From IMG/VR virus record IMGVR_UViG_3300046003_004989, positions 64,001 to 128,000 of that record: 64,000 nt of DNA, one strand, 5' to 3'. Every line of letters starts with the position of its first letter. The stretch's first letter is position 1. Source of the DNA: a virus. Below the pieces are notes generated by a model. The model worked only from the letters and a program-made list of their open reading frames with translations, was not told the origin of the DNA and made no database searches. Made by a program: the position numbers and the translations under genes. This document shows, piece after piece, positions 572-51,412 of the stretch.

Positions 572-871
572 TTAAATTTCAAAATCGTCAATATCCTCGT
601 CGCCCAATGCTTTGGAGAAGATTGCTTCTTTTTGTTTAACAATTTTATTTTGTGAGATAATTGCCTGTTTAAGCTCTTCTCTCTTAGTCGGATTTTCTTT
701 TGCTGTTTTGACGAATTCATTCTGTAACTGTTGAAGTTTAAGTTGAGCATCATGATATTCTTCAGTAGCTTTTTGTAGCTTCTTTGAAGATTGTCCTGCT
801 GCTTCATGGACTTTCTTTTCTTCGAATGTCTTGTGGAATTCGTTGAACGATGGTAAAAGTTCCTTTTTCAT
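572..871 (-). CDS. Putative internal head protein, coiled coil, with capsid-targeting-like leader
   Basis: N-terminus MKKELLPSFNEF; late-promoter-like TATATATA just upstream (891-899). Confidence 0.6.
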   Translation of the reverse strand: MKKELLPSFNEFHKTFEEKKVHEAAGQSSKKLQKATEEYHDAQLKLQQLQNEFVKTAKENPTKREELKQAIISQNKIVKQKEAIFSKALGDEDIDDFEI

Positions 872-907
872 TATATGCTTTTCTTTATTTTATATATACG
901 CAGACAA

Positions 908-925
908 GGCTGCCCGAAGGCAGCC
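908..925 (-). terminator. Hairpin (UUCG loop), probable terminator after the ECF sigma gene
   Basis: GGCTGCC-TTCG-GGCAGCC perfect 7-bp stem on the minus strand; short T tail. Confidence 0.65.
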
Positions 926-951
926 AAGTTCTGGATCAAATTAAAACATTT

Positions 952-1551
952 TTACACTTCGTATTTTTCTGCGATAATACGTTTACCACGAGAAATACGA
1001 TTCTTAACAGTGTGAAGAGGGATTTCAAGTTTTTGTGCGATTTCTTCATACTTTAAATCATTGAAGAATTTTTCTTCGATAACTACTCGATATTCATCTG
1101 GTAAAGAACTTACAATCTTACGAAGACGTAAAGCATTTTCATCAGTTTCTGCTTTTTCTTCGGCTACAATAAGGTGATCGGTATAGTTTTCAATAGAATC
1201 GAATTCTATCTTAGACATCAAGTTCTTATTTTCAGAGCTTTCGATATCGGACATATGTGTTACTTTACGACCTTTTCTGTAACGTAATTCCATACAAGCA
1301 GATGTATATGCTATACGATAAATCCAAGTTGAAATATGCCATTTTGGATCGTACTTATCTATTTTATTATAGACGGTAGACATTACATAGGATATCAAGT
1401 TTTCTGTATCGTCATGATTCTTAACGACTTGATAGATGTAATTGTAAAGACCTGGTCGAATTCTTTCGTATAATTCGGTGAAAACCTTTTCGGAACGAGT
1501 TTGTTTGAATTTGTAACCCAAATCTTTAAGTGAATCTGCTTGTTTAGCCAT
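952..1551 (-). CDS. ECF-type RNA polymerase sigma factor
   Basis: Region 2 (FTELYERIRPGLYNYIY...STWIYRIAY) and region 4.2 HTH (LKYEEIAQKLEIPLHTVKNRISRGK); start moved to ATG 1551 (MAKQ) because the promoter lies at 1571-1580. Confidence 0.9.
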   Translation of the reverse strand: MAKQADSLKDLGYKFKQTRSEKVFTELYERIRPGLYNYIYQVVKNHDDTENLISYVMSTVYNKIDKYDPKWHISTWIYRIAYTSACMELRYRKGRKVTHMSDIESSENKNLMSKIEFDSIENYTDHLIVAEEKAETDENALRLRKIVSSLPDEYRVVIEEKFFNDLKYEEIAQKLEIPLHTVKNRISRGKRIIAEKYEV

Positions 1552-1570
1552 AGTTTGAATAATTTTATAG

Positions 1571-1631
1571 TACAAATATAATCAATTTTTTTGAATAAGT
1601 AAACTGATTTGATAAAAACTTATTAACAATT
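1571..1631 (-). promoter_or_regulatory. Early promoter cassette 1 (TATATTTG -7 element plus upstream TTGTTAATAA box)
   Basis: TATATTTG matches the Bacteroidota TAnnTTTG consensus; box is 39 bp upstream. Confidence 0.75.
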
Positions 1632-12015: not shown

Positions 12016-12036
12016 ATTGATGTTTTAATTGTGATA

Positions 12037-21134: not shown

Positions 21135-21476
21135 TTATTTCTTGTAAGTAAAAGCATAGGAACCATCTCTAGTATAGCTCTTATTAATCTTGCTTTTATG
21201 TGAAGCGAAAACTTTAGCTACTAAGTCCTTAGCAAATTTTTCATCTTCTTTTAATTCGGAACCTAGCTTAGAAGTGCTAACTACCAAAGTTTCTTTTTTG
21301 AAGCCAAATCCACCCACAGTATCTAATAAAATACCCTGAGATCCATCTAATTCAAATTTACTATGCTTCTTGCAAGCATCTACTAAGTCTTTCATAAAGT
21401 TCTCTAGGTCTGTGTATGAGCCTTCATTAATAGAAGATTCATTTAGGAACTCTTCAAATGTTGGAATGTGTTTCAT
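21135..21476 (-). CDS. Putative internal head protein (capsid-targeting-like leader)
   Basis: MKHIPTFEEFLNE-SSINE. Confidence 0.65.
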   Translation of the reverse strand: MKHIPTFEEFLNESSINEGSYTDLENFMKDLVDACKKHSKFELDGSQGILLDTVGGFGFKKETLVVSTSKLGSELKEDEKFAKDLVAKVFASHKSKINKSYTRDGSYAFTYKK

Positions 21477-29770: not shown

Positions 29771-29793
29771 AATTGAATTGTTTTAATTTGATA

Positions 29794-32934: not shown

Positions 32935-33435
32935 TTAGCTAAATTTTGTCTCTCTAGCTTTTCTTTCTTTGATATTTGTTACAGCCTTTTGAAGTTTCAT
33001 AACTGTTTGTTTTGCTTGTAGCAAATCAATTTCTGCTTTAGTTACATCAGCGTCTTCAGGTTTTTCTTTCAGTTTTGTATATAGCTTAGCCATATTTTCT
33101 TTCATCTTAGCTTCTGCTTCTTTCTCTCTTCTCATTTTTTCCTCTTTAGTAGCATTTTCATTTACTGTTGATTCTGTAGTATTAGTGAAAAAATGAGTAA
33201 CTTGATCTAAATTTTCATTAGCAACTGAAATGTGATCTTCTGCCCAATCATGTCCATTTTTAAGTATTTCATCCATTTTATTAGGATCCATAGCTAAAAG
33301 AGTTTCAACATTTTTCTTGATGCTTTTTAGATTTCCGAAAACCATGTAGTTTTCTGGTTTTCCTCCGATCGGAGCTTGTAAAGCTGCTTCATTAACGTAT
33401 TCGTCGAATGAGTATATGTTTTTAAGTGTTTTCAT
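32935..33435 (-). CDS. Putative internal head protein (capsid-targeting-like leader)
   Basis: MKTLKNIYSFDEYVNE-A; second VNE site before a coiled-coil C-terminal part. Confidence 0.65.
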   Translation of the reverse strand: MKTLKNIYSFDEYVNEAALQAPIGGKPENYMVFGNLKSIKKNVETLLAMDPNKMDEILKNGHDWAEDHISVANENLDQVTHFFTNTTESTVNENATKEEKMRREKEAEAKMKENMAKLYTKLKEKPEDADVTKAEIDLLQAKQTVMKLQKAVTNIKERKARETKFS

Positions 33436-33440
33436 TTTGA

Positions 33441-34934
33441 TTATTTCTTTTCTGATTCAAATTTGATACCTGCATGACTAACTCCTTTAGATTTACCTGC
33501 ATGATATTCGCCATCAAATGATGTTACCATGAAAGTTTTGTAAGGAGAAACTGAACAACCGATTCTTTCCATGAATTTACGATTAGCAAGGAATTTAGTA
33601 GATTTTTCTTTTCTGTCTACTAGAGAAACGTGTACATCTTTATAAGTTTTACCACCGAAAGAAACTTCCATTTCGATGATGGGACGATTATGAATATCAT
33701 CACCTACTTCGGTATTTGCAAAGCCTATAACTTTTGATTCGAATGAATTATTACCAAGTTTCCACTTTACAGTTTTTTCATCTTCAGATAATTTAACTTC
33801 GTCATATGTTAGAGAACAAGACATAGAGCCATTACCAGTGTCGAATTTAGCAACAATATCACCAATTCCAGGGATTGTGATAACTTCTCGGAAACCAATA
33901 ACTCTCTTAGAACGAATCCAATTTGCTTTATCTGATATGAAGTCTATTACATCAGAAACAACATCAATACCTGTAGCTTTTTTCAAACCGTGAGTTCCTG
34001 GAGAAGCATTAACTTCTAGAACATAGTTTTTACCGGTTTTCTTATCAACAATAATGTCAACTCCACACCAGTTACAACCTACTGCTTTAGCTGATTCGAT
34101 TGCTATTCTTTCTTGTTCAGGAGTAACTTTAGTTTTTTCTACGGTACCACCTAAAGAATAATTTGTACGGAAGTCTTTCTTAACTCGATTTCTTCTCATA
34201 TATCCAAGAAGAACCGAATCAGTGTCTTGTGGAGTAGGAGAATTGAAACGTCTAGTTAAAACGTGAATACGTAAGTCATATTCAGAGTCTATTTTTTCTT
34301 GAATAAGAGTTTCAATATTTGGTTGTACTTTCCAAAGAGTTTGAAGTACAGATTTCAAAGAAGCGAGAGAATCAACGATTGATACACCAATACCTTGAGA
34401 TCCAGAAAGTAATTTGAGGACTACTGGAAATTGTCCACCAATTGCTTTAACAGCTCCATCAATCGATTCTTCGGAATCAACAATTGCCATTTTAGGGACA
34501 GGAATACCTGCATCCATTAGAATTTTAGAAGTAACGTATTTGTTTTCACAAGCAAGAACTGATTCTAATGTGTTAACTACGAAGAAGTTTGCATCTTCCA
34601 ATTGAGAAACCAAATCTCTTGTGAAAGTACTTCTTACAATACCACGTCTAGTTAGGATTGCTGTGTCTTCAGAATCTATCTTAAATGGTTTTTTAGTTTT
34701 GTCAACTATTATGAATCCATTACCATCTTTGTCAGGTACTAGATTTGCAGTATTGATGTCAATTATACGGAATTGTACACCTCTCTTTTTACATTCAGCT
34801 TCAACTGCTGGAACTGTGTAAGATTCTTCACTAATATTAGATAGAAGAACAAGTTTTACTTTTTGTTTCTTCGCTGAGGTTTTAACTGCCTCATTGATTA
34901 CGAATTCATCAAAGTATGCTAGACGATTTTTCAT
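33441..34934 (-). CDS. rimK: RimK-family ATP-grasp ligase fused to RimK-associated retropepsin-like protease, with capsid-targeting-like leader
   Basis: ENK, FPVVLK, GSQGIGV, IQEKI, DLRIHV, DFRTNYSLGG, GVDII and LEVNASPG; C-terminal IGFRE...AKFDTGN...RP...LVDR...FLANR protease motifs; N-terminus MKNRLAYFDEFVINE. Confidence 0.9.
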   Translation of the reverse strand: MKNRLAYFDEFVINEAVKTSAKKQKVKLVLLSNISEESYTVPAVEAECKKRGVQFRIIDINTANLVPDKDGNGFIIVDKTKKPFKIDSEDTAILTRRGIVRSTFTRDLVSQLEDANFFVVNTLESVLACENKYVTSKILMDAGIPVPKMAIVDSEESIDGAVKAIGGQFPVVLKLLSGSQGIGVSIVDSLASLKSVLQTLWKVQPNIETLIQEKIDSEYDLRIHVLTRRFNSPTPQDTDSVLLGYMRRNRVKKDFRTNYSLGGTVEKTKVTPEQERIAIESAKAVGCNWCGVDIIVDKKTGKNYVLEVNASPGTHGLKKATGIDVVSDVIDFISDKANWIRSKRVIGFREVITIPGIGDIVAKFDTGNGSMSCSLTYDEVKLSEDEKTVKWKLGNNSFESKVIGFANTEVGDDIHNRPIIEMEVSFGGKTYKDVHVSLVDRKEKSTKFLANRKFMERIGCSVSPYKTFMVTSFDGEYHAGKSKGVSHAGIKFESEKK

Positions 34935-38131: not shown

Positions 38132-39742
38132 TTATACTAAAGAACCTAAGTTTGGATGCATGAAAACACCTGAAGTTAAGTACATAGTTTCTGGGTGGAA
38201 ACCAGCTTCTACTAAAGCATAACGAGATTTAACCGCAACTTTAGGAGCCATAGTACCTTCAGCAATTGTTTGTACGCTTTCAGCCATTAAGTAAGGCATG
38301 AATACTAAACCAGGAGAATTACCATCACCTTTACGTCCTACCAAGAAACGTGTATCACCCCAAGCCATGTTAGGATCGTTGTAGATCGCTAGACCAGCAA
38401 GAGTACCGATTGGGTAAAGTGAACCAGACATTTGGTTGATAGTGTTTGCCATTGGAGCAGGTACGAAACCAGCAACGTCTTGAAGAGCAGAACATACTTG
38501 ACCGTTAGTTACAACGAAAGTAGCTGGTCCACGACGACCTCTAATAGCAATAAGGTTAGCGATAGCTAATACCTTAGACATGATTTTTCTTTGACGAGTT
38601 GACATGTTCTCTGAAGCAGAGTTAAGTACCTCATTTTTAACAGCTGTAGCACCTGTAAGTGTAGAGTTGTATAAGTAAGATCCGAAGTTAGTCAACGGGT
38701 TAGTTGTAGTACCAGAAACTAATACGTCAGTAGCACCAATATTCAAGAAGAAGTTGATTGCTTGTGACTTAATTACGTTAGCGTGGTTAGTTTCACCTAA
38801 GAAGAATAATCTAGTTAAGATGTTTTTGTTGATTGATTGAGTCAATTCGTTAATCAATACTGATTCTACTTGAGATACAGCATCTACTCCGAATTGTTTC
38901 AAATCTTGAACTTGCTCACGAGTTACAGCAGCAGCAACTTGGAAAGTTTTAGCTTCTACTGATTTGTTGAACAATGAAAGGTTCATGATGTTATCCATCG
39001 TACCTTCACCAGTTTCTCTTGAGTAAGGATCGTTGATTGTTTCGTTTGTTGGATAAGAAGCAGCAGCAAGAGCATTACCAGAGAATCCAGTGATGTGATC
39101 TTCAAGAGCTTTTACTAATTCAACAGAAGTAAATGATGTTGCAGTAACACCACCGATAAGAATACCAGAGATTGCAGCAGCAACAGTTGCAGTACCTGTA
39201 GTACCAGCTACTTTGAAGATTGGGTAACCATCAAGACGTGATCCACCGATGTAAGTAAATGTGTAACCAGCAGATGAACCAACAGCACCAGCAGTAAAGC
39301 CAGGTGATGGAGTAGCACCGTAGTTTAATTTAATTAAAAGTGGAGCATTACCTAAAGTACCAGCAGTTTTACCACCACCGTATACGAAGTCTAAATAAGT
39401 AAGAACACCCATTGGACCAGGCATTGGTACAACTGGAACTAAGTCAAGACCAATTGTTTGAGCAGCAACTTGCATAGCAAGAGGCAATAATGTGTGTGCT
39501 TTGTCACCTGAACCAGTCGTTTGGCTATCAAAACCAGACTGAGTAGTCGGAGAATCAGGGAAACGGGTAGCACCCATACCGTTAACAGCGCCTAATTGAG
39601 CTAAGTTGTTGTTTTCGTACAATTCATGGTAATGACAGTATTTAGACATCCACTCAACTTTAGAACGCTCAGTGATTCCAGTATTAGACTCTACGATAGA
39701 AGCCCATTTACCAAAAATTTCTTGTTCGTTAATAAGATACAT
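38132..39742 (-). CDS. gp23: Major capsid protein (gp23-like)
   Basis: DLVPVVPMPGP, VEAKT, EQVQDL, RRGPATF, MPY and KSRYAL gp23-family motifs. Confidence 0.92.
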   Translation of the reverse strand: MYLINEQEIFGKWASIVESNTGITERSKVEWMSKYCHYHELYENNNLAQLGAVNGMGATRFPDSPTTQSGFDSQTTGSGDKAHTLLPLAMQVAAQTIGLDLVPVVPMPGPMGVLTYLDFVYGGGKTAGTLGNAPLLIKLNYGATPSPGFTAGAVGSSAGYTFTYIGGSRLDGYPIFKVAGTTGTATVAAAISGILIGGVTATSFTSVELVKALEDHITGFSGNALAAASYPTNETINDPYSRETGEGTMDNIMNLSLFNKSVEAKTFQVAAAVTREQVQDLKQFGVDAVSQVESVLINELTQSINKNILTRLFFLGETNHANVIKSQAINFFLNIGATDVLVSGTTTNPLTNFGSYLYNSTLTGATAVKNEVLNSASENMSTRQRKIMSKVLAIANLIAIRGRRGPATFVVTNGQVCSALQDVAGFVPAPMANTINQMSGSLYPIGTLAGLAIYNDPNMAWGDTRFLVGRKGDGNSPGLVFMPYLMAESVQTIAEGTMAPKVAVKSRYALVEAGFHPETMYLTSGVFMHPNLGSLV

Positions 39743-39908: not shown

Positions 39909-41813
39909 TTAGTAGCCTCTACCGAAACGTTTTTTAAGACCTGCATGAACAGCTTCCATATAAGCGTCTGGAGTTTGATATGCTGCTGTTTCATTAATAG
40001 GAGCAGAAGCATTTTCATTGATAGGTGCATCTAATTTAGAAGGACGTAAATCTCTTGTAGACCAGAAGTTATCAACTGCATATTGATTATCTAAAACTTT
40101 CACAGAAGCTTGAGCTTTGATAGCATTCTTTTGTGATTCGTTAAGACCATTCCAAGATTCTTTGTATTTAGCTGGCATATTAGTCAACCAATTGAAAGAT
40201 GGAGCAGCAATAATAAATGCTGATTCATAAAGTCTTTCAGCATCTACTGAACCATAGAATTTATTGTTTTCAAAGATAGTGATTACTTCGTCTTTCTTTT
40301 CAGGTGTTAAAGAAGCAAATTGATTTCTTTTAGTTTCAGTTAAGAAGTTTAAGAAATGTAATTTGTTAGAGTTATTAGCTTCATTTACTGCTTTAGCTGA
40401 TTCTAAAATAGAATTCAATTTATCAGTAAGATTTTTCTCATAATTATCAGAACCTGCATCAATAGTAACATCGATTGCGGCTGGAGTAGCAGTAGGTTCA
40501 GAACCTTCATTTACTGGTTCAGCATTTGCATCAATAACAACTTTACCTTCATTGATTTCTTTAACGATGTGATTTAAGTAACCGCTTAAGTTTTCTGTTT
40601 GTTCTTTCAAATATTCAGTGTATTCAATGATAGATGATGTACCTTCAACGATATAATCGTTATGAGAAATTACGTTATCTAATTGTTCATTGATATGATT
40701 TTGATAAGACCAACGGTTATTAGATTCGTTAGCTACATATTTAGTGAATTCAATACCTTGATCAGCTTTTTCAGCTACAACTTTAGTATATTCAATTCCT
40801 TCATCAGCTTTCTTAGCTACAACTTTAGTGTATTCGATTAAGTGGTCAACTGATTCAGCAAGTTTTTCTGAATAGTTAATTCCTTGATTAGATCTTTCAC
40901 CAACAAGTTCAGCGTAATTTTTAACTTTCTCTAGGTTTTCGATGATGTAGTCATTATGTGAAATAAGACCATCAACAGACTCAGCAAGTTTTCCAATGTA
41001 TTCTTGAATTTGGTTAACTCTTTTAGCTGTTTCTTCAGTGTACTTAACAAGTCCTTCATTTACAGAAGTATTGTTATTTGCATTTTGGGATTCAGTTAAA
41101 GCTTTTTTAAGATTGTCAACCTCATTTTTTACATGTTTTGAGTACTCATTAAAGTCTTCAACTGTAATGTATTTTTTAGAATCCATTTCGTTGATTTTTG
41201 TTTCTTTGTTTGATTCAGTATATTTATCTTCTTCCGTAGATTTGATAGTAGACTCATCCAATGTGAAGTCAGTTTCATAGATAGAAATTAGGCTATCTTC
41301 ACCGAAACCGAAAGATTCATTTACTCTTTTTAATTCAGCATTAGCAAATCCGGGATCTGCTACTAAATCGTAAGTAAACATTTTTTTGATCTTAACATGT
41401 CCATTAGATTCAACAACACCTGCTGCTCTAGATGAAATATGAAGTGGAACTCCAGCATCAACTAATGCCATAGCTTGTTTACCTGCATCTGTATTAAGAA
41501 GTCTAATACGACCAGTTACTTTTTTAGATTTTGGATCGTATGAAAGGTCCTCAATGATATGAGAAGCATTTTTTAGGGAGATGTCAAAAGACTTAGGATG
41601 GTCAAGTTCACCAAGAAGTTTATTACCTTGCAATTTAGCTTGGAGTTCTTGGATGTGAGGCATTAACTCTTTTTCGTCGTAGATTCTATTGTTTTTGTTT
41701 CTAACGCCGATTTCAGTAAATGTACCTTCTAGCACATACTTATCTCCGTCTTTAGAAGATTGAAGATTCCCTTCGGATCTTTCTAATACGAGTAGATATT
41801 TGTTATTGCTCAT
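39909..41813 (-). CDS. gp21: Prohead protease (gp21-like) fused to scaffold/core (gp22-like)
   Basis: NKNNRIY, GELDHP, ISSRAAG and YDLVADPGF protease motifs followed by about 450 aa of coiled coil with repeats. Confidence 0.88.
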   Translation of the reverse strand: MSNNKYLLVLERSEGNLQSSKDGDKYVLEGTFTEIGVRNKNNRIYDEKELMPHIQELQAKLQGNKLLGELDHPKSFDISLKNASHIIEDLSYDPKSKKVTGRIRLLNTDAGKQAMALVDAGVPLHISSRAAGVVESNGHVKIKKMFTYDLVADPGFANAELKRVNESFGFGEDSLISIYETDFTLDESTIKSTEEDKYTESNKETKINEMDSKKYITVEDFNEYSKHVKNEVDNLKKALTESQNANNNTSVNEGLVKYTEETAKRVNQIQEYIGKLAESVDGLISHNDYIIENLEKVKNYAELVGERSNQGINYSEKLAESVDHLIEYTKVVAKKADEGIEYTKVVAEKADQGIEFTKYVANESNNRWSYQNHINEQLDNVISHNDYIVEGTSSIIEYTEYLKEQTENLSGYLNHIVKEINEGKVVIDANAEPVNEGSEPTATPAAIDVTIDAGSDNYEKNLTDKLNSILESAKAVNEANNSNKLHFLNFLTETKRNQFASLTPEKKDEVITIFENNKFYGSVDAERLYESAFIIAAPSFNWLTNMPAKYKESWNGLNESQKNAIKAQASVKVLDNQYAVDNFWSTRDLRPSKLDAPINENASAPINETAAYQTPDAYMEAVHAGLKKRFGRGY

Positions 41814-41866: not shown

Positions 41867-43480
41867 TTACATACCCGTAACTTCAGCATCTTTCTTAGCT
41901 GCTTCACGTTTTGCTTCGTCTTCTAATTCTTTTAATTTTTTGTTTAATCTTAGATCTTCTGCTGATAAACCGAGGAATCTTTGTATCAAGAATTCGGATG
42001 AGAAGTATTTAATTTCGTTCATATTAGCATCTGTTTCAACTAGACCATCTTTCATAGATTGTACGAAGTCTAATCGTTTTTGTAAGATTTCTATCTCTTT
42101 CATTTCTTCGAAGATATTGTATCTGTGATATTTGATACCAATTTGTGCTTTGAATGCATCATCTTCTTTTAATTCAGGGAAGTCAAGACACATCTGAATC
42201 CAAAGAGGTTTAACAAGAATTTCTTGGAAAACTGAACGAAGACGAGTAACAAAACGACCGAATTTAATTTCATCTCGAGTCATACCTTCGGCATTCATCT
42301 CCCATGAAGGAGGTGATTCCATATCAAAACGAGAAAGAGGAATTTTAGATACTTTGATTAACTTCTCACGGAAGTATTTAAGTGCATCAGTATCAGACAA
42401 GTCTGGACCATCATTACCAATTGTTTCAATTGTTGGTTCACCTGCATCACCTGAAGGAAACCAATATTCTTTATTGAACGGCATCATCGCTTTACCATTA
42501 ACTTTCAATTCACCTGAATCGGTATCGAAGTCAATTTGTTCACGGTAGTTTTGCATCAAAACACCAAGAGATTGTTTTGCTCTAGTTTTTGATTTACCAC
42601 CGACTGGTATAACGAATTTAGTTTTGAATGATGCATTTACTGTTGCCCAAATAACTCTTGAGTGCTCCATAATTCGGAGTAAGTTAAATGAACGGATAAG
42701 ACGCTCAACATAAGAAACACGATTAACTGTGTTAACGTTGGCATATGATATGTAAATTACTTGAGAATCGTAAATTACACGTTCTTTATTAGGTTGACCT
42801 TTGAACTGTTTCCAAAGTTTTTTACCTTCTTTGTCAAGACCTGGCTCTAATGAGATAGGATCTAATTCTTTGAAACCGATAATTCTGGTTTGCTCTTTAT
42901 TATAAATTATCTCAAATGCGAGATAACCATCAACTAACCATTTTCTAAAGTATGACCAAGCTGCGATATCATTATTGAATCCGAAGTATTGGTAAACTCT
43001 TTTAAAGTTAGTCTCTAATGCGATTTTTATTGCTTCTAATGTGCCAGGTTCTAATGTTTCATCATCAAATGCTAGCGGATAACAAAAATAATTTTTATCA
43101 TCAAATACAATACACTCATCACACAGAGTGTCTAGAATATCTTCAATTTCATCTTGTATAGCGAATTTACGAAGGTCTTCTCGTTTCTTTGGATATGATT
43201 TATCAAAAATTGAAATTGATTTTCTTAAATTGATATCTGTCATTGATAGGTTTGCAAATAGAGCATAATCGTCATATTCACCACCTGCAACGTTTCTTGG
43301 ATCCATTGTCCAACCGTAACGATCTTCGTTTATACCAATAGCCTTAGAGTTCTTCAACACCATATCGTCATACATCATACCGAATGATGATAACGACTTA
43401 AGAGCTTTACTAACGAGGTTTCTAGATGCTGGATTTGGTTTTCCAGCTGAAGTTTCGTCTCTGTTTACGAATCCTGCCAT
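41867..43480 (-). CDS. gp20: Portal protein (gp20-like)
   Basis: FRKWLVDG, ELDP, YWFP, KIPLSR and RDEIKFGRFVTRLR motifs. Confidence 0.93.
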   Translation of the reverse strand: MAGFVNRDETSAGKPNPASRNLVSKALKSLSSFGMMYDDMVLKNSKAIGINEDRYGWTMDPRNVAGGEYDDYALFANLSMTDINLRKSISIFDKSYPKKREDLRKFAIQDEIEDILDTLCDECIVFDDKNYFCYPLAFDDETLEPGTLEAIKIALETNFKRVYQYFGFNNDIAAWSYFRKWLVDGYLAFEIIYNKEQTRIIGFKELDPISLEPGLDKEGKKLWKQFKGQPNKERVIYDSQVIYISYANVNTVNRVSYVERLIRSFNLLRIMEHSRVIWATVNASFKTKFVIPVGGKSKTRAKQSLGVLMQNYREQIDFDTDSGELKVNGKAMMPFNKEYWFPSGDAGEPTIETIGNDGPDLSDTDALKYFREKLIKVSKIPLSRFDMESPPSWEMNAEGMTRDEIKFGRFVTRLRSVFQEILVKPLWIQMCLDFPELKEDDAFKAQIGIKYHRYNIFEEMKEIEILQKRLDFVQSMKDGLVETDANMNEIKYFSSEFLIQRFLGLSAEDLRLNKKLKELEDEAKREAAKKDAEVTGM

Positions 43481-44768: not shown

Positions 44769-45122
44769 TTATTCTTCGTCTTCGTCTTCAGTAGAAGCAC
44801 CTTCTTGAACTTGTGCGATTCCACCTTTACCGATCAAAGCAGAAATTTCTTCTTCTGTGAATTGAACGTCATTAGCTTTGTCTTCACCATTAAAGATATA
44901 AACACCATTAGTAACACCTTGATAGATCATATCTGTATGTTTGTCAGCATCAACAGTTAAAACGTACTCTTTACCAGGAGTAAGATCTGCAACAGTTGCA
45001 AGAGCTCCACCTACTGGATCAGCATCCGTTGTGTTAGTTGGGTTGAATCCGTCAGCATCATTAGCTTCTTGAACGTTATAATGTTCGTTTACGAATTCAT
45101 CAAATGATAGTAAATTTTTCAT
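44769..45122 (-). CDS. Putative internal head protein (capsid-targeting-like leader)
   Basis: MKNLLSFDEFVNE; late promoter at 45144-45151; paralogous to the C-terminus of 48255..49919. Confidence 0.7.
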   Translation of the reverse strand: MKNLLSFDEFVNEHYNVQEANDADGFNPTNTTDADPVGGALATVADLTPGKEYVLTVDADKHTDMIYQGVTNGVYIFNGEDKANDVQFTEEEISALIGKGGIAQVQEGASTEDEDEE

Positions 45123-45173: not shown

Positions 45174-45989
45174 TTAGTATACTGGATGACTACCAGCAGA
45201 AGCTGAATCAGTCGAATTCGTATATCCTTTAGTGTTTACATTTTGATCAGGTCCAGATGTAGGAGTGAGAGTACCCGTACCTACCATCGTAGCTTCTTCC
45301 TCTAATTTCTTACCTTGGTCATCTGTTAGAGGTTTATCTCTAAGAACTTTGTTTATTTCTACAAAGAATTGAGATTCTTCTGGTGTTAGATTAGCTTTAA
45401 CATATTTGGAAATATCTCTCATAATTTTTGAGCGCATATTATTGTTAGTTTTAATCTTTTCGTAAGATGAACCTTTCTTAAAAGTACCGTCAATGTAAGG
45501 ATATTTTTGAAGGTCCGCTAGTAGAGAATTTAATTTTGCGTCTGCATTAAATTTAGCAGCTATATTTTCTGCTTCATCTCTCATTTTAGCATAAGCTTTA
45601 TCAGATTTTATCTTTGAAAGTTTAGCAACAATGGATTGTCTCCAATTAGAAAAAATATAACCTGCAATAATCAGACCACCTCCAGCTAAAGCAGCTCCAG
45701 CTTTAATTAGATCTGCTGCAAGAATACCTTTTGTTACTTCCCACCATTGCAAATCCTCATTAATCATTTCATCAACTACAATTTCTTGAGATTCACATAT
45801 ATGAATTGTTCCTTTATTATCACGGAATTGAACTCTTCCGTTTGAAGTTTCTTTTGATACGATTACACCAGAAAATCCATCCAAAGATGTAACATAATCA
45901 CCGACTTCTAATTGACATCCGTCAAATGAATATACAGGACTAGGATAATTTTCGTTTAGGTATTGATCGTAAGATGGTAGATTTTTCAT
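45174..45989 (-). CDS. Putative internal head protein with TM helix
   Basis: MKNLPSYDQYLNE; hydrophobic AGAALAGGGLIIAGYIF segment. Confidence 0.65.
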   Translation of the reverse strand: MKNLPSYDQYLNENYPSPVYSFDGCQLEVGDYVTSLDGFSGVIVSKETSNGRVQFRDNKGTIHICESQEIVVDEMINEDLQWWEVTKGILAADLIKAGAALAGGGLIIAGYIFSNWRQSIVAKLSKIKSDKAYAKMRDEAENIAAKFNADAKLNSLLADLQKYPYIDGTFKKGSSYEKIKTNNNMRSKIMRDISKYVKANLTPEESQFFVEINKVLRDKPLTDDQGKKLEEEATMVGTGTLTPTSGPDQNVNTKGYTNSTDSASAGSHPVY

Positions 45990-47152
45990 TACTCTTCTTC
46001 GTTTTCTTTTTGTTTATCTTCTGGTTTGTCTTCTTCGTCGTGCTTATCGTCATGTTTATCATCACCTTTGGTGACCATTCCAATAGCTGTTTCACAAATA
46101 CCTACAACCCAAAGACCTTTTGCAGTATATTTCATACACATTAAAATAACTCCAATTCCTGGAAGTGCTGTCATTATCATAGTTCCAATAGCAGAAACGC
46201 CCATTTCTTTTATTAAACTTGTAACTCCAGCTTTAATAGCATATCCAGTAACAAGTGCAAATACTGCTCCAACTATAGTGAATTCAAATGGACCAGGAGC
46301 TTTAGCTACTTTTGAAAGGAATGACGAGATTCCAGAAAGACCCTTATTGGCAGCTGAACCAGCGGCATGTTCAGTAGAATGTAAAGCTTTAAATGGTTGA
46401 AACTCTGCAACTTTATGTACTAAAGCTGAAAGGAAAGGAATTTTAATTCCTCCATGATCAGAACTTTCTTTTAGGTATTGAACAAAGTCATAACTTTCAA
46501 CGATCAAATCAGAAGCAGCTAAATAAAGAGCTGTTTCTAACATTTCCGAATAACCTTCATTTGTAGAGGCAGCTTGATTTAAACCTGCACCCATTTCACT
46601 TGAGATACCACCAAACCATTTAGCAGTTGCTTTTGCCATAGATCCGAGATTTTTAACCTCTTCTTTTGCGACATCAGCTTTACCTTTAAATTTTCCTTTA
46701 GCAGCTTCTGTTATTTTTTCTTTCGATTTAGCGTAACCAGATTCTACCTGTCCTTTAATATAGTCCCAAGCTTTTTGAATGAAAGCTTTAACGATACCGA
46801 GGATTTTTTGTATTAAAGCAGAAACAGATCCACCAATTTTCATGATAGCTTCTTGAGTACCTGAAAGATATTCTTTACCCTTTTCTTTTGCTACTTGTAT
46901 AGCAGCTTTAGCTTTAGCTTTTAATTTATCTGCAATCGATTCTTCATTGAGAGTACCTTCAAAGATCGAATCCCATTGTTCAGTTTCAATGATTGCTTCA
47001 GATAGAAGACGTTCTTCTTCTGAAATATGTGGAGATTTAGATAGAGCCTCAAATAGATATTTTTTAGCGTCTATTGATTGAGATTTGAATTCAGAATAAA
47101 TTCTTTGAGCTTCAAATATCATATACTCTTCGTAAGATAATATTCTTTTCAT
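45989..47152 (-). CDS. Putative internal head protein with hydrophobic helical hairpin
   Basis: MKRILSYEEYMIFE; C-terminal hydrophobic region; acidic tail ending EEE. Confidence 0.65.
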   Translation of the reverse strand: MKRILSYEEYMIFEAQRIYSEFKSQSIDAKKYLFEALSKSPHISEEERLLSEAIIETEQWDSIFEGTLNEESIADKLKAKAKAAIQVAKEKGKEYLSGTQEAIMKIGGSVSALIQKILGIVKAFIQKAWDYIKGQVESGYAKSKEKITEAAKGKFKGKADVAKEEVKNLGSMAKATAKWFGGISSEMGAGLNQAASTNEGYSEMLETALYLAASDLIVESYDFVQYLKESSDHGGIKIPFLSALVHKVAEFQPFKALHSTEHAAGSAANKGLSGISSFLSKVAKAPGPFEFTIVGAVFALVTGYAIKAGVTSLIKEMGVSAIGTMIMTALPGIGVILMCMKYTAKGLWVVGICETAIGMVTKGDDKHDDKHDEEDKPEDKQKENEEE

Positions 47153-47154: not shown

Positions 47155-47631
47155 TTATATCTTAAATTCGTCGTCTTCTTCAGAATCTTCTTCGTCACTT
47201 GCAGCTTCTTTCTCTCCAGCTTTATCAGCCTTTTCTTCTCCAGTTTCTTTCTTAGCGTCTGGATCTTCAACATCCACTTCTTTGAATTTTTCTAGATCTT
47301 CAGGAGATACTTCTTGTTTAAGAATGAATATAGAAGGAGCTTCGTTTGTAAAGATTTTATAGCGACCATAGTCATAAACAAAGAGAACTGTTCCATCTTT
47401 GCTTATTTCGTAAGTTTTTGTAAATGCATCTTGTTTGATCTGATAACCCTTTTCTGCATTTTCTTTTCTCCATGCTGTCCACCAAGTAGGAGACATAGCA
47501 TAAAGACGATGGAAGTCAGATAGCTTAGTTTTCTTACCATCATTTTCTTTGGCATCATCTAAAGCTTGCTTCACACCGAAATAAGGCAAATATTGCTCGT
47601 TAAATTGTTCGTATGACGGTAGATTTTTCAA
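47155..47631 (-). CDS. Putative internal head protein
   Basis: Probable TTG start at 47631 gives MKNLPSYEQFNE and removes the overlap with gp55. Confidence 0.6.
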   Translation of the reverse strand: MKNLPSYEQFNEQYLPYFGVKQALDDAKENDGKKTKLSDFHRLYAMSPTWWTAWRKENAEKGYQIKQDAFTKTYEISKDGTVLFVYDYGRYKIFTNEAPSIFILKQEVSPEDLEKFKEVDVEDPDAKKETGEEKADKAGEKEAASDEEDSEEDDEFKI

Positions 47632-47641: not shown

Positions 47642-47998
47642 TTATATTGAATAGATTCCTTCGGAATCTGATGAACCTTTTCCACTTAGTGAAATGGTTC
47701 CTTTGTATTTTCCTGGATGTATTTTATTCCAACCTTTAGCATAACCATTTTTTGCGATCTGTGTAAAATATGAGAAAGCATTAGTGGTTTTTTCTGGTTT
47801 GAAAGATCTCCAGTATTTAAACAAATCCAAAAGAGCAAAAGATATGCAATCTTCTCGATCCATCGGATTCTCATACGACAATCTCGTATTAGCTCGATAG
47901 GCAATTAGGATTAGCATTTCCTCTGCTCTTTTAGTCAGTTTATCTTGTTTCTGTGAGAGACAAATCTCTTCATAGAATTCTTTTGGTTTTACGTACAT
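47642..47998 (-). CDS. gp55: Late-transcription sigma factor (gp55-like)
   Basis: YVKPKEF...REDCIS...FKPEKTTNAFSYFTQIA, matching the gp55 NxFxYFTQI signature. Confidence 0.85.
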   Translation of the reverse strand: MYVKPKEFYEEICLSQKQDKLTKRAEEMLILIAYRANTRLSYENPMDREDCISFALLDLFKYWRSFKPEKTTNAFSYFTQIAKNGYAKGWNKIHPGKYKGTISLSGKGSSDSEGIYSI

Positions 47999-48018: not shown

Positions 48019-48243
48019 TTAGAACTTCACATCTAAAAATTTCTTTTCTACCATGTCTGATTTTCCATTCGATAGGATAACTTCAACTTTGTCGTTGTTA
48101 CCACCTTTTGTATACTGAAGAGCATCAACTTTCACAGTATCACCTTTTTTAAGGGATTTTGTAGAAGCATTAACTGTTGCATTGACATGAGTGTCAGAGG
48201 TCTTTGCTTCATTTAGCCATTCTTCAAATGTAGTAAGTTTCAT
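48019..48243 (-). CDS. Small putative internal head protein
   Basis: MKLTTFEEWLNE-A. Confidence 0.65.
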   Translation of the reverse strand: MKLTTFEEWLNEAKTSDTHVNATVNASTKSLKKGDTVKVDALQYTKGGNNDKVEVILSNGKSDMVEKKFLDVKF

Positions 48244-48254
48244 AGAAAAGTTTT

Positions 48255-49919
48255 TTATTGTGTGATTTCACCTGCAGAGATCAATTCTTCGACCTCGCTT
48301 TCTTTTATATGAATAGGTTGTGCAGAAGTTTCAAGATCTTTCTGATTAAACATATAAGAACCATCAGCTTCACCTTGGAATACATAACCAGTTGTTCCTT
48401 TTACAGTGTACTCTTGACCAGCAACTAGATCTTTACAAGATGTAAGTTTTGTATCACCTGAAGTAGGTAATTCAGCAGTTGCAGGATCGAATGTATCAGC
48501 TGCTGCTTCAACAATTTCACCTTTTAATTTAGAAAGTGCATCATTTTGTTCTTTCAATTGAGACTCAAGAAGAGATTTAGCTTGATCGATAAATTCTGAT
48601 TTACCTAAAGTCTTTTCAGCAGCTTCAATATCAGCAAGTTTCTCGATAATGAATTTAACTCTACTTTCTACTTTATTTAATTCAGCAGTTTTTCTTTCAA
48701 CTTCAGCTTTTTCATTTTCTAATAAATGATTAAGTGATTCTGAAATATCATAGTTCATGAAAGTTTTAACGATATCAACAGCTTCAGTTGCATTAGCAGC
48801 TTCAACGATTGAATTTTCTTGCATACCCTTGTTTACTTTTTGAATGAAAATACGATCATTAGTATTGAAAATTGTAGCAGAAAGACCTTCAAAAATAGAA
48901 GATGTTACTTTATAACCGAAGTCAATTTCTTTAATTTTAGATCCTTCATTGATAGCTCTTCCGATCATAGCAAGTTTTTCTTGTTCATTCATACGAACGA
49001 TACCAGAAGCCATTAATTGAGATGTAATATTAGAAGATTCTACTAATTTACCATTCAATGATACTTTAGTTTCTTCACCGAAAGCGATATCTAAAACTGA
49101 ATTAGGGTTTGGATAAACTCTCATTGTATTATTTGCAAATTTAGCAGATTCAGCTAAACGAACTAATGAAGTAAAGTCATCAGATGCAGGATTCGTAGAT
49201 TCAGTGATAGCTCCACCTTCGGAAACTACTAAGAATTTACCGCTTGATGCGAAAGCGAAAGTGTTTTCGTCGATAGCTTCAACTGGAGAATAAATTTTAG
49301 AAACTTTAAAGTTAGGATTCTGTCCGTTAATTGCACCTTTTTGAGTATTGCAATATTCGTATAATCTCTTAACTAAAGGAATCCAAACTTCAGATTCCAT
49401 AGTATCAACTACTGCAAATACTGGATTTTCTGAGTTAGATGCTTCACGTAAAGCAGTAATAGCTTTAGTGTAGTATGATTTGTTACGATCAACTTCTAAG
49501 TCACGAATTACAGATTCAATAAGAATGTAAGTTTGGTTAGATTTGATAAAGTCTTCACCTTCTGTGATGAAAGTTTTAACTTGTGGCATCCAAGAATAAG
49601 CTTTAAGTTCTTTAATAGCTGATTCAAGAATAGCAACTCTACCTAAAAGGTATGAGTCAGCAATAGTTGTTTTTGCTTCAGAAAGTGTAGAAGCTGTTGC
49701 AAGGTGACGAGCTTGATTTTGCTCAACGCCTTTACCAAGCAATTCTGTATAAGCATCTTTTGCTGTGATAGTTCCTTCAGCAATTTCCAATGAAGCTAGT
49801 TTACCGTAGTATCTTTCAACAATCATTTTAGATGTATTGTTTCTGTCGATACTTTCAAGTAATTCTGAAAACTTCACTTTAAGTGACGCTGAATCAAATT
49901 TTGATTTTAGTTGTGACAT
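48255..49919 (-). CDS. Large virion-associated hypothetical protein
   Basis: 554 aa; many (I/L/V)xE-(A/S/G) sites; C-terminal domain paralogous to 44769..45122. Confidence 0.6.
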   Translation of the reverse strand: MSQLKSKFDSASLKVKFSELLESIDRNNTSKMIVERYYGKLASLEIAEGTITAKDAYTELLGKGVEQNQARHLATASTLSEAKTTIADSYLLGRVAILESAIKELKAYSWMPQVKTFITEGEDFIKSNQTYILIESVIRDLEVDRNKSYYTKAITALREASNSENPVFAVVDTMESEVWIPLVKRLYEYCNTQKGAINGQNPNFKVSKIYSPVEAIDENTFAFASSGKFLVVSEGGAITESTNPASDDFTSLVRLAESAKFANNTMRVYPNPNSVLDIAFGEETKVSLNGKLVESSNITSQLMASGIVRMNEQEKLAMIGRAINEGSKIKEIDFGYKVTSSIFEGLSATIFNTNDRIFIQKVNKGMQENSIVEAANATEAVDIVKTFMNYDISESLNHLLENEKAEVERKTAELNKVESRVKFIIEKLADIEAAEKTLGKSEFIDQAKSLLESQLKEQNDALSKLKGEIVEAAADTFDPATAELPTSGDTKLTSCKDLVAGQEYTVKGTTGYVFQGEADGSYMFNQKDLETSAQPIHIKESEVEELISAGEITQ

Positions 49920-49951
49920 TTTTATGTTCGTTTTTTTACGTTTTTCTTTTA

Positions 49952-50632
49952 TTATTTATACACGTAACAAGGAATTGATTTCCCATATAGTGGAATAAGT
50001 TCTTCTGAATGTGGTGCTTCGATATAATCGATCATAGTACCATCAAACATAGGTCTTCCTGTTTGATCGTGTGCAAAATAACCTTTAGTTCCTATCTGCC
50101 AAATTGGAGTAGAACCAGAAGTAATGACTGCTCTATAAACTTTATAACCTACTTCCCATATTTCGATAGTAGAGTTAACTTGATATGTGTCTCTTAAAGA
50201 GAAGTACTTATTTTGACCTGTTTTAAGATTCAATGAACCGCAAGGTAAAATAGCAGCACCTCTTCCTTGATATCCACCAGTGAATTTTCTAGTAGTTTTG
50301 AATTGTTCTCCAGAAGATCTTTTAGAACCTGGAAGAACTTTTACTTGAGTTGCTTTACCAGCAACGTCCATTCCAAGAGCTTCTGCTCTAGAAAAGAAAG
50401 CTTTAGTTACTTCATGGTCAGCTCCAAGAATTTGATCAGCTGCAACTCCACGGTCATAAGCTTTATCTTTATCAGTGATTAACTTACACATAGTATTCGC
50501 TAATGTAAGCATTTTGTTTGTATCACCTTTAGATTTGGTTACGATATCTTGAACTCTTTGAACATCTTTTTGAGATGCTTCAAGAACTAGACTCTCTAGG
50601 ATAAAATCGTCGTAAGAAGGTATATTGTTCAT
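49952..50632 (-). CDS. Putative internal head protein
   Basis: MNNIPSYDDFILE-SLVLE-A. Confidence 0.65.
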   Translation of the reverse strand: MNNIPSYDDFILESLVLEASQKDVQRVQDIVTKSKGDTNKMLTLANTMCKLITDKDKAYDRGVAADQILGADHEVTKAFFSRAEALGMDVAGKATQVKVLPGSKRSSGEQFKTTRKFTGGYQGRGAAILPCGSLNLKTGQNKYFSLRDTYQVNSTIEIWEVGYKVYRAVITSGSTPIWQIGTKGYFAHDQTGRPMFDGTMIDYIEAPHSEELIPLYGKSIPCYVYK

Positions 50633-50641
50633 GTTGTTATA

Positions 50642-51412
50642 TTATTTAGCAGCACCAACCCCTTTTAATTGAGGATATTTCTTAAGAACGGCAGCAACTA
50701 CTTCTTTTTTAATGTCTTTGTATTGTGGCCATGTAGCCCAAACTAATGCAGTTTTTGCATGTTTTTCGTCATGTATTGGCCAAGATCTTTTATCAGGGAA
50801 TATGAAGTCTTCTGGTTTTAATTTTTCTTTCTCTGCTGGAGAAAGACCTTCAAGAACTTTATGATAATCTAAAACGCTTTCAAGAACTTCATCTTCAATA
50901 CCTTCGATATCGAATTCTAAAGATTCAGAAAGAATTTTCTTGATTTTCTCTAATTTTTGAGCATCTTTTAAAGCCGATTGAAGAGCTTGTACCTTAGCTG
51001 ATTCTTCATCTTCTTCAGGTTTTTTAGTTTCTTCTTCGTCTTTTTCTGGCTCAGTTTCACCTTTCTTAAGCTTATCTAATGCAGCTTTAACATCTACATC
51101 TGGTTTTGCTTTTGAAGGATCTATACCTTTTGCTAGATCTGATGCGTCTGCTTTAAGGATATCGTCAGCTTCATCTAATGATTGAAGTGCTTCGAAGTCA
51201 ATTGATTCACCTAAAAATACTTTTGACATAACTCGAACTTTACGTTCTTCGTCAATGCCTATAGTAGTTAAAAATAGATAAATTTGTTCAGGTGTTTTTC
51301 CTTCAGAAGCTAATTTGCTAACGATAGGGAAAAGAGATCCTGCACCGTAGTATGAATACTGTCCAGCTAGATTCTCGTTCACAAATTCTGTGTATGATTT
51401 AATAAGTCCCAT
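50642..51412 (-). CDS. Putative internal head protein with C-terminal DUF6582-like module
   Basis: MGLIKSYTEFVNE; LSPAEKEKLKPEDFIFPDKRSWPIHDEKHAKTAL; late promoter at 51429-51436. Confidence 0.6.
   Translation of the reverse strand: MGLIKSYTEFVNENLAGQYSYYGAGSLFPIVSKLASEGKTPEQIYLFLTTIGIDEERKVRVMSKVFLGESIDFEALQSLDEADDILKADASDLAKGIDPSKAKPDVDVKAALDKLKKGETEPEKDEEETKKPEEDEESAKVQALQSALKDAQKLEKIKKILSESLEFDIEGIEDEVLESVLDYHKVLEGLSPAEKEKLKPEDFIFPDKRSWPIHDEKHAKTALVWATWPQYKDIKKEVVAAVLKKYPQLKGVGAAK

What the first reader, a model, noticed from the sequence alone, without database searches (positions are those of the whole stretch)
572..51412. A shared capsid-targeting-like leader marks at least 11 unrelated proteins: a candidate large virion cargo-loading and injection system
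Seen: otherwise unrelated ORFs begin with the same ~13-residue pattern M-K-x-(L/I)-x-(S/T)-(F/Y)-x-(E/D/Q)-(F/Y/W)-(L/V/I)-N-E. They are 572 MKKELLPSFNEF, 21135 MKHIPTFEEFLNE, 32935 MKTLKNIYSFDEYVNE, 33441 MKNRLAYFDEFVINE, 44769 MKNLLSFDEFVNE, 45174 MKNLPSYDQYLNE, 45989 MKRILSYEEYMIFE, 47155 (TTG start) MKNLPSYEQFNE, 48019 MKLTTFEEWLNE, 49952 MNNIPSYDDFILE and 50642 MGLIKSYTEFVNE. All appear to lie in late-promoter operons, and none of the replication or early genes has the motif. Established: T4 internal proteins carry a 10-aa capsid targeting sequence (MKTYQEFIAE-like) that directs them into the prohead and is removed by gp21 after Glu. Inference: this phage uses a portable leader to load a much larger and more diverse cargo (an enzyme, membrane proteins, small domains) and inject it at infection. 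Such a leader could also serve as a protein-delivery tag.
Basis: partly seen in the sequence, partly recalled or inferred. Interest (0 to 1): 0.9.

Follow-up and report, generated by a model that had tools for sequence, protein, structure and literature searches.

The report
Capsid-targeting leader on dozens of phage proteins
An uncultured jumbo phage distantly related to T4 puts the same 13-residue "load me into the head, then cut here" tag on at least 30 otherwise unrelated proteins, so its packaged protein cargo can probably be read straight from the genome, though no packaging or cutting has been measured.

Summary
Ten of the 11 listed ORFs start with M-K-x-(I/L)-P-x-(F/Y)-x-(D/E/Q)-(F/Y/W)-(L/I/V)-N-E; the eleventh (572-871) is a degenerate copy. 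The start-agnostic core pattern occurs 25 times in the 144-kb record against 0.9 in shuffles, and 23 of those lie just after an ATG. The whole record (about 53% complete) has 26 strict and up to 36 leader ORFs. A 246-kb relative has 27.

Cargo bodies show no similarity to each other, and codons vary freely, so selection acts on the peptide. The conserved positions are the four that mutagenesis defined in the T4 capsid targeting sequence. A gp21-family protease fused to a scaffold lies in the window. That scaffold is the genome's top outlier for x-N-E sites, and the capsid protein starts with an invariant I-N-E.

Best reading (0.78): a T4-type capsid targeting and processing leader, greatly expanded. 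Packaging, cleavage and injection are inferred, not shown. "All late" and "membrane proteins" are only weakly supported. Use of such a leader as a delivery tag is already established for T4.

This scan had already noted the same leader on neighbouring DNA of this genome. Verdict: new variant of a known kind, interest 0.6.

The parts
50642..51412 (-). Leader ORF, 256 aa, acidic body (pI 4.9), mostly low-confidence fold
   Evidence: Matrix 22.3 bits, 4 residues after the ATG. Late-like motif 24 nt upstream. Family of 7 in relatives all keep the leader. AF2 mean pLDDT 56.
49952..50632 (-). Leader ORF, 226 aa; leader ends F-I-L-E and is followed by a second L-x-L-E
   Evidence: Matrix 24.8 bits. 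Orthologues with leader in L001 and L004. Weak PHROG 'membrane protein' hit only; no hydrophobic segment found.
48019..48243 (-). Leader ORF, 74 aa, basic (pI 9.3)
   Evidence: Matrix 24.1 bits, 3 residues after the ATG. Nine orthologues with leader.
47155..47631 (-). Leader ORF, 158 aa from a TTG start; shortened leader (…Y-E-Q-F-N-E); acidic tail
   Evidence: Orthologues in L009, L016 and L026 begin with ATG at the same residue.
45989..47152 (-). Leader ORF, 387 aa; gapped leader ending I-F-E; two marginal hydrophobic segments; weak tape-measure/DUF6674-like coiled coil
   Evidence: One orthologue with leader in L009.
45174..45989 (-). Leader ORF, 271 aa: small SH3/KOW/Tudor-like barrel, a conserved internal (I/L/M)-N-E site near residue 78, a Gly/Ala-rich stretch, then a helical domain
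   Evidence: Matrix 25.1 bits. Alignment A1 of 12 family members. AF2 mean pLDDT 70. Foldseek best E about 0.02 to KOW/Tudor barrels.
44769..45122 (-). Leader ORF, 117 aa, very acidic (pI 4.1); the most widely conserved leader protein, directly upstream of the gp4-like head-closure gene; could be a prohead core component
   Evidence: Matrix 26.5 bits. 25 orthologues, all with leader. Late-like motif 29 nt upstream. Its body is homologous to the C-terminus of the 554-aa protein at 48255-49919.
33441..34934 (-). Leader ORF, 497 aa: 15-residue leader (…V-I-N-E|A) on a RimK-like ATP-grasp ligase, with a weak C-terminal Zn_protease-like region
   Evidence: Pfam PF08443 2.7e-34 and PF05618 weak. 101 of 120 homologues keep a leader-like N-terminus, while distant ones diverge or start at the enzyme body.
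32935..33435 (-). Leader ORF, 166 aa; leader begins 3 residues later than usual; internal x-N-E near residue 93
   Evidence: Matrix 20.2 bits, 7 residues after the ATG. Its body occurs fused to the 158-aa cargo's body in relatives.
21135..21476 (-). Leader ORF, 113 aa, canonical leader with a tandem second I-N-E five residues later; lies among tail and terminase genes
   Evidence: Matrix 30.9 bits. Sites at residues 13 and 18.
572..871 (-). Degenerate leader ORF, 99 aa, coiled-coil-like; weakest member
   Evidence: Translation. No matrix hit. Only sub-threshold coiled-coil Pfam hits.
39909..41813 (-). Prohead protease (gp21 family, residues ~22-137, His72, Ser127/128) fused to a scaffold-like C-terminal part with 10 (L/I/V/M)-N-E sites
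   Evidence: Pfam Peptidase_S77 46 bits against a cut-off of 27. PDB 5JBL at E 5e-5. Site list. Top outlier of 162 proteins, Poisson P = 6e-7. Same enrichment in relatives. PTm1 annotates the same fusion.
38132..39742 (-). Major capsid protein (gp23 family) whose N-terminus carries an invariant (L/I/M)-I-N-E
   Evidence: Pfam Gp23 6.9e-37. The N-terminal I-N-E is invariant across relatives at 53-81% identity, while the residues before it vary in number.
41867..43480 (-). Portal protein (gp20-like), context of the head module
   Evidence: phrog_213 2.1e-74.
47642..47998 (-). gp55-like late sigma factor, embedded among leader genes
   Evidence: phrog_234 1e-11.

Best explanation
The shared N-terminus is a T4-type capsid targeting sequence (CTS) combined with a maturation-cleavage site. 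Inferred mechanism: the short acidic amphipathic helix, with its two aromatic residues three positions apart, docks the newly made protein onto the scaffold core while the prohead assembles. The capsid shell closes around the core. The gp21-family serine protease, which is fused to the scaffold here, then cuts after the Glu of (L/I/V)-N-E. That cut releases the mature cargo inside the head while the protease also digests the scaffold at its own ten such sites. About a third of the leaders carry a second x-N-E four to ten residues downstream (usually five), and some cargos carry internal sites, so backup cuts and two-module cargos are likely. By analogy with T4 internal proteins, much of the cargo would leave with the DNA and act in the next cell as first-minute enzymes or anti-defence factors. 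A conserved acidic subset next to the head genes may instead be core components. Shown here: the motif, its statistics, its conservation on changing cargo, the protease family and the site enrichment. Inferred: docking, cleavage, residence in the virion and injection.
For: (1) Specificity: 25 core matches against 0.89 in shuffles; 23 lie just after an ATG and all are on the coding strand. 26 of 27 matrix hits at 17 bits or more are N-terminal. (2) The bodies are unrelated and include an ATP-grasp ligase and a cytidylyltransferase-like fold. (3) Peptide-level selection: 46% of shared residues use different codons. (4) The published T4 CTS is MKTYQEFIAE (PMC8442874). Targeting maps to its residues 4 and 7 and processing to residues 8 and 10 (PMC9026906). 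These are the aromatic, aromatic, aliphatic and Glu positions conserved here, and the T4 CTS scores 9.8 bits on this genome's matrix (random 9-mers reach that 2e-5 of the time). (5) S77 protease with His and Ser aligned to T4 gp21. (6) Independent support for x-N-E as the cut site: the scaffold part is the genome's top outlier (10 sites, P = 6e-7), relatives show the same, and the capsid protein has an invariant N-terminal I-N-E. The residue after Glu is mostly Ser, Ala or Asn. (7) Clade-wide: 134 of 145 matrix hits in 1.24 Mb of relatives are N-terminal, and a 246-kb relative has 27. 70 of 73 cargo homologues keep the leader, while 61 of 134 relatives' cargos are absent here. (8) AF2 models the leader core as a short helix in both models. 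(9) Enrichment behind late-like promoter motifs: 18 of 36 leader genes against 33 of 175 others.
Against: There is no virion proteome, no N-terminal sequencing and no cultured member, so packaging, cleavage and injection are all untested. Mature cargos are not uniformly basic as T4 IPs are (pI 4.1-9.3). Ten leader genes outside the window follow early-type promoter cassettes, so not all are strictly late. Promoter classes are my own motif inference. The capsid protein's I-N-E lies only 4-9 residues from its start, unlike the 65-residue T4 gp23 propeptide (that figure is from memory), so its meaning is uncertain. The leader matrix was built from this genome, so its scores are partly circular; the regex and shuffle control and the scaffold test are not.
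Confidence: 0.78

Rival explanations
1. The leader does target proteins to the prohead, but most bearers are assembly-only core or scaffold accessories, like T4 gp67 and gp68. They would be degraded or stay structural, so this would not be an injected effector arsenal.
For: The most conserved bearers sit in the head and neck gene block and are acidic: 117 aa with pI 4.1, 158 aa with pI 4.6 and 256 aa with pI 4.9. Several have low-confidence, disordered models. In T4, core proteins are also cut by gp21 (PMC5694885).
Against: Enzyme cargos (RimK-like ligase, cytidylyltransferase-like) make poor scaffolds. 45% of relatives' cargos are absent here and 45 of 63 clusters are singletons, which is too fluid for essential structural parts. 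Most bodies have only one site or a tandem site at the leader, not the many sites the scaffold has.
Confidence: 0.12
2. The leader is a targeting or regulatory propeptide for something other than the capsid, for example delivery to another phage-built compartment, a chaperone handle, or a zymogen-style inhibitory peptide removed in the cytoplasm.
For: Nothing direct. Jumbo phages do sort proteins between compartments (PMC13282480), and some leader genes follow early-type promoters.
Against: It matches the T4 CTS at the mapped functional residues. The same x-N-E motif saturates the scaffold and marks the capsid protein. The only protease identified is a prohead protease. The leader is acidic and lacks a hydrophobic core, so it is not a Sec, Tat or lipoprotein signal.
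Confidence: 0.06
3. The shared start is not a functional peptide. It would be a relic of gene duplication, or a DNA/RNA-level element such as a recombination site or translation enhancer.
For: Many bearers are tandemly arrayed, which duplication or cassette exchange would produce.
Against: Synonymous codons vary freely, with 46% of shared residues on different codons. Bodies show no similarity and include unrelated folds. The leader is kept on orthologous cargos across 55-96% identity. Conservation stops exactly at the Glu.
Confidence: 0.02

Closest known systems
T4 internal proteins IPI, IPII, IPIII (and Alt) with the capsid targeting sequence, cleaved by gp21
   Same: Extreme N-terminal propeptide of 10-20 residues. 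Same spacing of aromatic, aromatic, aliphatic and Glu. Cut after Glu by a gp21-family protease. Bodies unrelated to each other. Genes variable between related phages. Alt sets the precedent for an enzyme cargo.
   Different: Three extra residues (I-P-x) precede the first aromatic. Asn is strongly preferred at P2. There are 26-36 bearers in half a genome rather than a handful. Bodies are not uniformly basic. Tandem second sites and internal sites are common. No cargo body matches T4 IP families. The protease is fused to the scaffold.
Polymorphic internal-protein loci of T-even phages (Repoila et al. 1994, as cited in PMC3012670)
   Same: A fast-evolving set of diverse ORFs that share only the CTS and are thought to counter host defences.
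   Different: Known only in close T4 relatives of enterobacteria and at a small scale. Here there are several arrays across a jumbo genome in a deeply divergent clade.
Inner-body and ejection proteins of phiKZ, 201phi2-1 and SPN3US, processed by gp175/gp245 proteases
   Same: Many head-internal proteins are cut after Glu by a prohead protease related to gp21. Redundant sites occur within propeptides. Some proteins are injected.
   Different: Those propeptides are mostly long (over 100 residues) and not a common short leader, their motif is (S/A/G)-x-E, and only 8-19 proteins are processed (PMC5694885, PMC9026906).
Polyvalent proteins injected by phages and conjugative elements (Iyer et al., cited in PMC7824862)
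   Same: Delivery of enzyme and anti-defence domains into the host together with the DNA. Domain shuffling.
   Different: Those are single giant multidomain proteins without a shared cleavable leader. Here there are many small separate proteins, each with its own tag.

Membership tests
T4-type CTS-bearing head-internal proteins | Short propeptide at the extreme N-terminus of otherwise unrelated proteins | tested here: met
   The leader starts 3-7 residues after the start codon in 26 strict cases. Bodies show no blastp similarity.
T4-type CTS-bearing head-internal proteins | Residues equivalent to T4 CTS positions 4 and 7 (targeting) and 8 and 10 (processing) | tested here: met
   Column counts: F/Y 26 of 26, F/Y/W 26 of 26, V/L/I 26 of 26, Glu 25 of 26. 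T4 mapping from PMC9026906 and the T4 sequence from PMC8442874. The T4 CTS scores 9.8 bits.
T4-type CTS-bearing head-internal proteins | Genome encodes a gp21-family (Peptidase S77) prohead protease with catalytic His and Ser | tested here: met
   PF03420 at 46 bits against a cut-off of 27. 5JBL at E 5e-5. His72 and Ser127/128 sit 55-56 residues apart at the aligned positions; their identity as the catalytic residues rests on my recollection of T4 gp21.
T4-type CTS-bearing head-internal proteins | A scaffold core carrying many sites of the same cleavage type | tested here: met
   10 (L/I/V/M)-N-E sites after the protease domain, P = 6e-7, the top of 162 proteins. Conserved in relatives.
T4-type CTS-bearing head-internal proteins | Protein present in the virion with the leader removed | not testable with these tools
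   Uncultured metagenomic record; no proteome available.
T4-type CTS-bearing head-internal proteins | Ejection into the host with the DNA | not testable with these tools
   Analogy with T4 only.
T4 IPI/IPII/IPIII protein families (the bodies) | Sequence homology of the mature protein, or a small highly basic character | tested here: not met
   No PHROG or Pfam hit to IP families. pI ranges from 4.1 to 9.3. These are therefore not members of the IP protein families; only the leader is shared.
phiKZ-like inner-body/ejection proteins | Long propeptides (about 100 residues or more) with (S/A/G)-x-E sites and an S80-type protease | tested here: not met
   The leader is 12-16 residues and its P3 is aliphatic. 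PF20034 reaches 28.8 bits but S77 scores higher.
Sec/Tat/lipoprotein signal peptides | Basic n-region followed by a hydrophobic core of 10 or more residues | tested here: not met
   The leader carries three or four acidic residues and no hydrophobic run.

The most novel reading that the evidence does not exclude
A whole clade of uncultured T4-like jumbo phages, probably infecting Bacteroidota, encodes a genome-readable 'injectome'. In this reading, 30-60 fast-turning-over proteins per genome, including a RimK-type glutamate ligase and nucleotidyl-transfer enzymes, are loaded by one ancient CTS shared with T4. Some are two-module polyproteins that the head protease splits, and they are delivered into the next host as a first-minute takeover and anti-defence kit.
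Probability: 0.45. Interest if true: 0.8.

Novelty: new variant of a known kind. Interest (0 to 1): 0.6.

Why it matters
The proteins a phage injects with its DNA are the first to meet host defences, and they normally need virion proteomics on a cultured phage to identify. If this leader works as the T4 CTS does, the packaged set of an entire uncultured clade can be listed from sequence alone. That would give hundreds of candidate anti-defence or takeover proteins, most with no known family. It would also show that the CTS mechanism is ancient and can scale at least tenfold beyond T4. Finally, it would offer a second, divergent CTS and protease pair for protein-packaging vectors and for testing which features of the tag are essential.

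Tried and rejected
- blastn of the head region against the phage collection: no match.
- Protein atlas on two cargos: nothing usable.
- AF2 of the 256-aa cargo: mean pLDDT 56, so no fold search was run.
- Foldseek of the 271-aa cargo: only weak KOW/Tudor barrel matches at E about 0.02.
- Pfam on 20 out-of-window proteins (19 leader-bearing): one hit only.
- Canonical T4 late promoter TATAAATA: only 6 copies on the coding strand, so I defined a looser late-like motif myself. My first early-promoter regex was wrong and was redone.
- Leader search in the 462-kb LR756500.1 phage and in Tenacibaculum phage PTm1: absent, both near the capsid gene and genome-wide for the strict core. The leader is therefore clade-specific rather than general to Bacteroidota jumbo phages.
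- Co-variation of the leader's P2 residue with the scaffold motif between sub-clades: no clear signal.
- Three papers were not held: the T4 genome review and Repoila 1994, both looked up by PMC id, and Mullaney and Black 1996, seen only as a citation. As a result, the timing of T4 IP genes and the number of CTS ORFs in T-even loci are unverified.

Full report
CONTEXT. The window is bases 64001-128000 of a single 144,480-bp linear IMG/VR virus record, which CheckV rates at about 53% complete. About 34% of its bases are G+C, and 210 of about 219 ORFs lie on the minus strand. The window holds a T4-like head module:
- gp4-like head closure protein, 44271-44750
- gp2-like DNA end protector, 43522-44271
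- portal, 41867-43480
- gp21-family protease, 39909-41813
- gp23-family capsid protein, 38132-39742
- gp55-like late sigma factor, 47642-47998
- large terminase, 18487-20280

The capsid protein's nearest named relatives are a 462-kb uncultured phage (56% identity), the Lak megaphages of Prevotella (35-39%) and Tenacibaculum jumbo phages (32-33%). Early-type promoter cassettes have the TTTG ... TAnnTTTG form that I recall as the Bacteroidota sigma-A pattern (that attribution is from memory). Close relatives are contigs of 207-294 kb. This is therefore a fragment of an uncultured T4-like jumbo phage, probably with a Bacteroidota host.

All 11 ORFs exist on the minus strand. Ten carry the leader. 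Seven match without gaps, and three have one residue inserted or deleted between the second aromatic residue and the Glu. The TTG start of 47155-47631 is backed by orthologues that start with ATG at the same residue. 572-871 is a degenerate copy in what is probably a real gene.

For a test that is not circular, I counted a start-agnostic core pattern (aromatic, polar, D/E/Q, aromatic, aliphatic, any, Glu) in all six frames. It occurs 25 times, always on the coding strand, and 23 times within 10 codons of an in-frame ATG. Two hundred shuffles gave means of 0.89 matches in total and 0.1 near an ATG. A position matrix built from the genome's own leaders finds 27 hits at 17 bits or more, of which 26 are N-terminal.

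Counting gapped and degenerate forms, the record has 26 strict, about 31 clear and up to 36 leader ORFs. These include a tandem block of about 19 just upstream of the window. This scan's earlier notes on the same genome describe that block in the same terms, and I re-derived it independently.

THE LEADER IS NEITHER A PARALOGUE N-TERMINUS NOR A DNA ELEMENT. With the leader removed, no pair of the 35 bodies matches at E <= 1e-3. Two bodies have unrelated enzyme folds: a RimK-like ATP-grasp (PF08443, 2.7e-34) and a cytidylyltransferase-like domain. The rest have no Pfam or PHROG family. Synonymous codons vary freely, and 46% of residues shared between two leaders use different codons. Selection is therefore on the peptide.

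MATCH TO THE T4 CAPSID TARGETING SEQUENCE. The T4 CTS is MKTYQEFIAE (PMC8442874). Amber-suppressor mutagenesis placed targeting at its residues 4 and 7 and processing at residues 8 and 10 (PMC9026906). Aligned at the Glu, those are exactly the positions conserved here: F/Y in 26 of 26, F/Y/W in 26 of 26, V/L/I in 26 of 26 and Glu in 25 of 26. The T4 peptide scores 9.8 bits on this genome's matrix, a score that 2 in 100,000 random 9-mers reach. The differences are three extra residues (usually I-P-x) before the first aromatic and a strong preference for Asn before the Glu.

THE PROCESSING MACHINERY IS PRESENT AND CARRIES THE SAME MOTIF. The 634-residue product of 39909-41813 passes Pfam's cut-off for Peptidase_S77 and aligns to the solved T4 gp21 (5JBL). 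His72 and Ser127/128 lie at the aligned positions. Everything after about residue 160 is scaffold-like and contains ten (L/I/V/M)-N-E sites. Against the genome's background outside N-termini (0.20 sites per 100 residues), this protein is the top outlier of 162 proteins, with P = 6e-7. Relatives show the same enrichment, and PTm1's annotators call the equivalent gene a scaffold-protease fusion.

The capsid protein begins with an (L/I/M)-I-N-E that is invariant from 81% down to 53% identity, while the number of residues before it varies. The residue after the leader's Glu is Ser, Ala or Asn in 19 of 26 cases. Genome-wide, 47 of 112 (L/I/V)-N-E triplets fall in the first 40 residues of proteins, a region that holds 18.5% of all residues. 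About eleven leaders have a second x-N-E four to ten residues further on, usually five. This resembles the redundant propeptide sites reported for phiKZ (PMC9026906).

THE LEADER IS A CLADE FEATURE ON A CHANGING CARGO.
- In 80 related loci totalling 1.24 Mb, 134 of 145 matrix hits are N-terminal.
- A 246-kb relative with terminal repeats has 27 leader ORFs in about seven clusters.
- The 169 leader ORFs, own plus relatives', form 63 clusters, of which 45 are singletons.
- Of the relatives' 134 leader ORFs, 73 have a homologue here and 70 of those homologues also carry the leader. The other 61 have no counterpart here.
- In the ATP-grasp family, 101 of 120 homologues keep a leader-like start. 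The most distant ones diverge, and one starts at the enzyme body.
- Modules are shuffled: the bodies of the 158-aa and 166-aa cargos are fused behind one leader in several relatives.
- The 271-aa family has a conserved internal (I/L/M)-N-E between a small barrel and a helical domain.
- The strict core is absent from the complete genomes of the 462-kb phage and PTm1.

Three upstream motif classes can be seen:
- an early-type terminator-promoter cassette (22 copies on the coding strand);
- a late-like GATA(T/A)ATA motif before the capsid, protease, portal and other structural genes;
- a CATATAA class.

By nearest upstream motif, 18 leader genes are late-like, 10 are early-type (all in the upstream array), 5 are CATATAA-class (four of them around gp55) and 3 are undetermined. 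Late-like assignment is enriched (18 of 36 leader genes against 33 of 175 others) but is not universal, and the classes are my own inference. Hydrophobic segments are marginal and occur in only two cargos, so 'membrane proteins' is weakly founded. Mature bodies range from pI 4.1 to 9.3, unlike the basic T4 IPs. The conserved acidic proteins next to the head genes may be core components in the manner of T4 gp67 and gp68. The delivery-tag application is long established for T4 (PMC3012670; PMC9026906).

PRIOR ART. The held literature states that T-even internal proteins are diverse and share only a CTS (PMC3012670, citing Repoila 1994). It also reports that phiKZ-type phages process 8-19 head proteins with mostly long propeptides (PMC5694885, PMC9026906). 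Searches found no description of a short common leader on dozens of proteins in a jumbo phage. Several primary papers were not readable.

VERDICT. The leader is real, far beyond chance and more widespread than reported. It is best explained as a T4-type capsid targeting and cleavage tag, expanded at least tenfold in a divergent clade (confidence 0.78). All steps after translation are inferred.

Noticed in passing
window 48255-49919 (-): This 554-aa protein has no N-terminal leader. Its last ~80 residues are homologous to the body of the 117-aa leader protein. In relatives L032 and L033 the homologue of its residues 125-500 starts with a leader, whereas the window's copy has a leader-like W-M-P-Q-V-K-T-F-I-T-E at about residues 109-120 behind an N-terminal extension. 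This may be an embedded leader.
   Followed up: partly
window ~40698-40841 (-), inside 39909-41813: The scaffold part contains three tandem ~15-residue repeats (I-E-Y/F-T-K-x-V-A-x-K-A-D-x-G type). They are lysine-rich and are a candidate docking surface for the acidic leader.
   Followed up: no
window 37447-38019 (-): The 190-aa protein directly downstream of the capsid gene has no family hit but is the second-strongest outlier for x-N-E sites (3 sites, P = 0.004). It may be another processed head protein.
   Followed up: no
whole record; e.g. window 1551-1630, 2587-2663, 12015-12097, 29770-29863, 62360-62467: There are 22 coding-strand copies of an early-type cassette: a hairpin with a T-run followed by TTTG...TTAT(A/C)TTTG, which looks like the Bacteroidota sigma-A pattern. 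A late-like GATA(T/A)ATA motif sits before structural genes, and a third CATATAA class sits before many replication genes.
   Followed up: partly
window 33441-34934 (-): After its ATP-grasp domain, the RimK-like cargo has a C-terminal region (residues ~346-467) with a weak Zn_protease (PF05618) match. A large phage-borne family of at least 120 clusters at 55-96% identity shares this architecture.
   Followed up: partly
window 82-807 (-): The long ORF overlapping 572-871 reads like out-of-frame sequence for its first ~80 residues. The real gene probably starts at the internal Met near 567, immediately after the stop of 572-871.
   Followed up: partly
G000:C1:133191-134384 (outside the window): This 397-aa protein starts with a non-aromatic leader-like peptide ending L-N-E and has four more x-N-E sites. 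Its residues 21-87 match the body of a leader ORF in relative L016. It is a candidate processed core protein.
   Followed up: no
G000:C1:35253-35323 and 40848-40899 (outside the window): Two early-type terminator-promoter cassettes sit inside the upstream leader array, so part of the presumed head cargo may also be transcribed early.
   Followed up: partly
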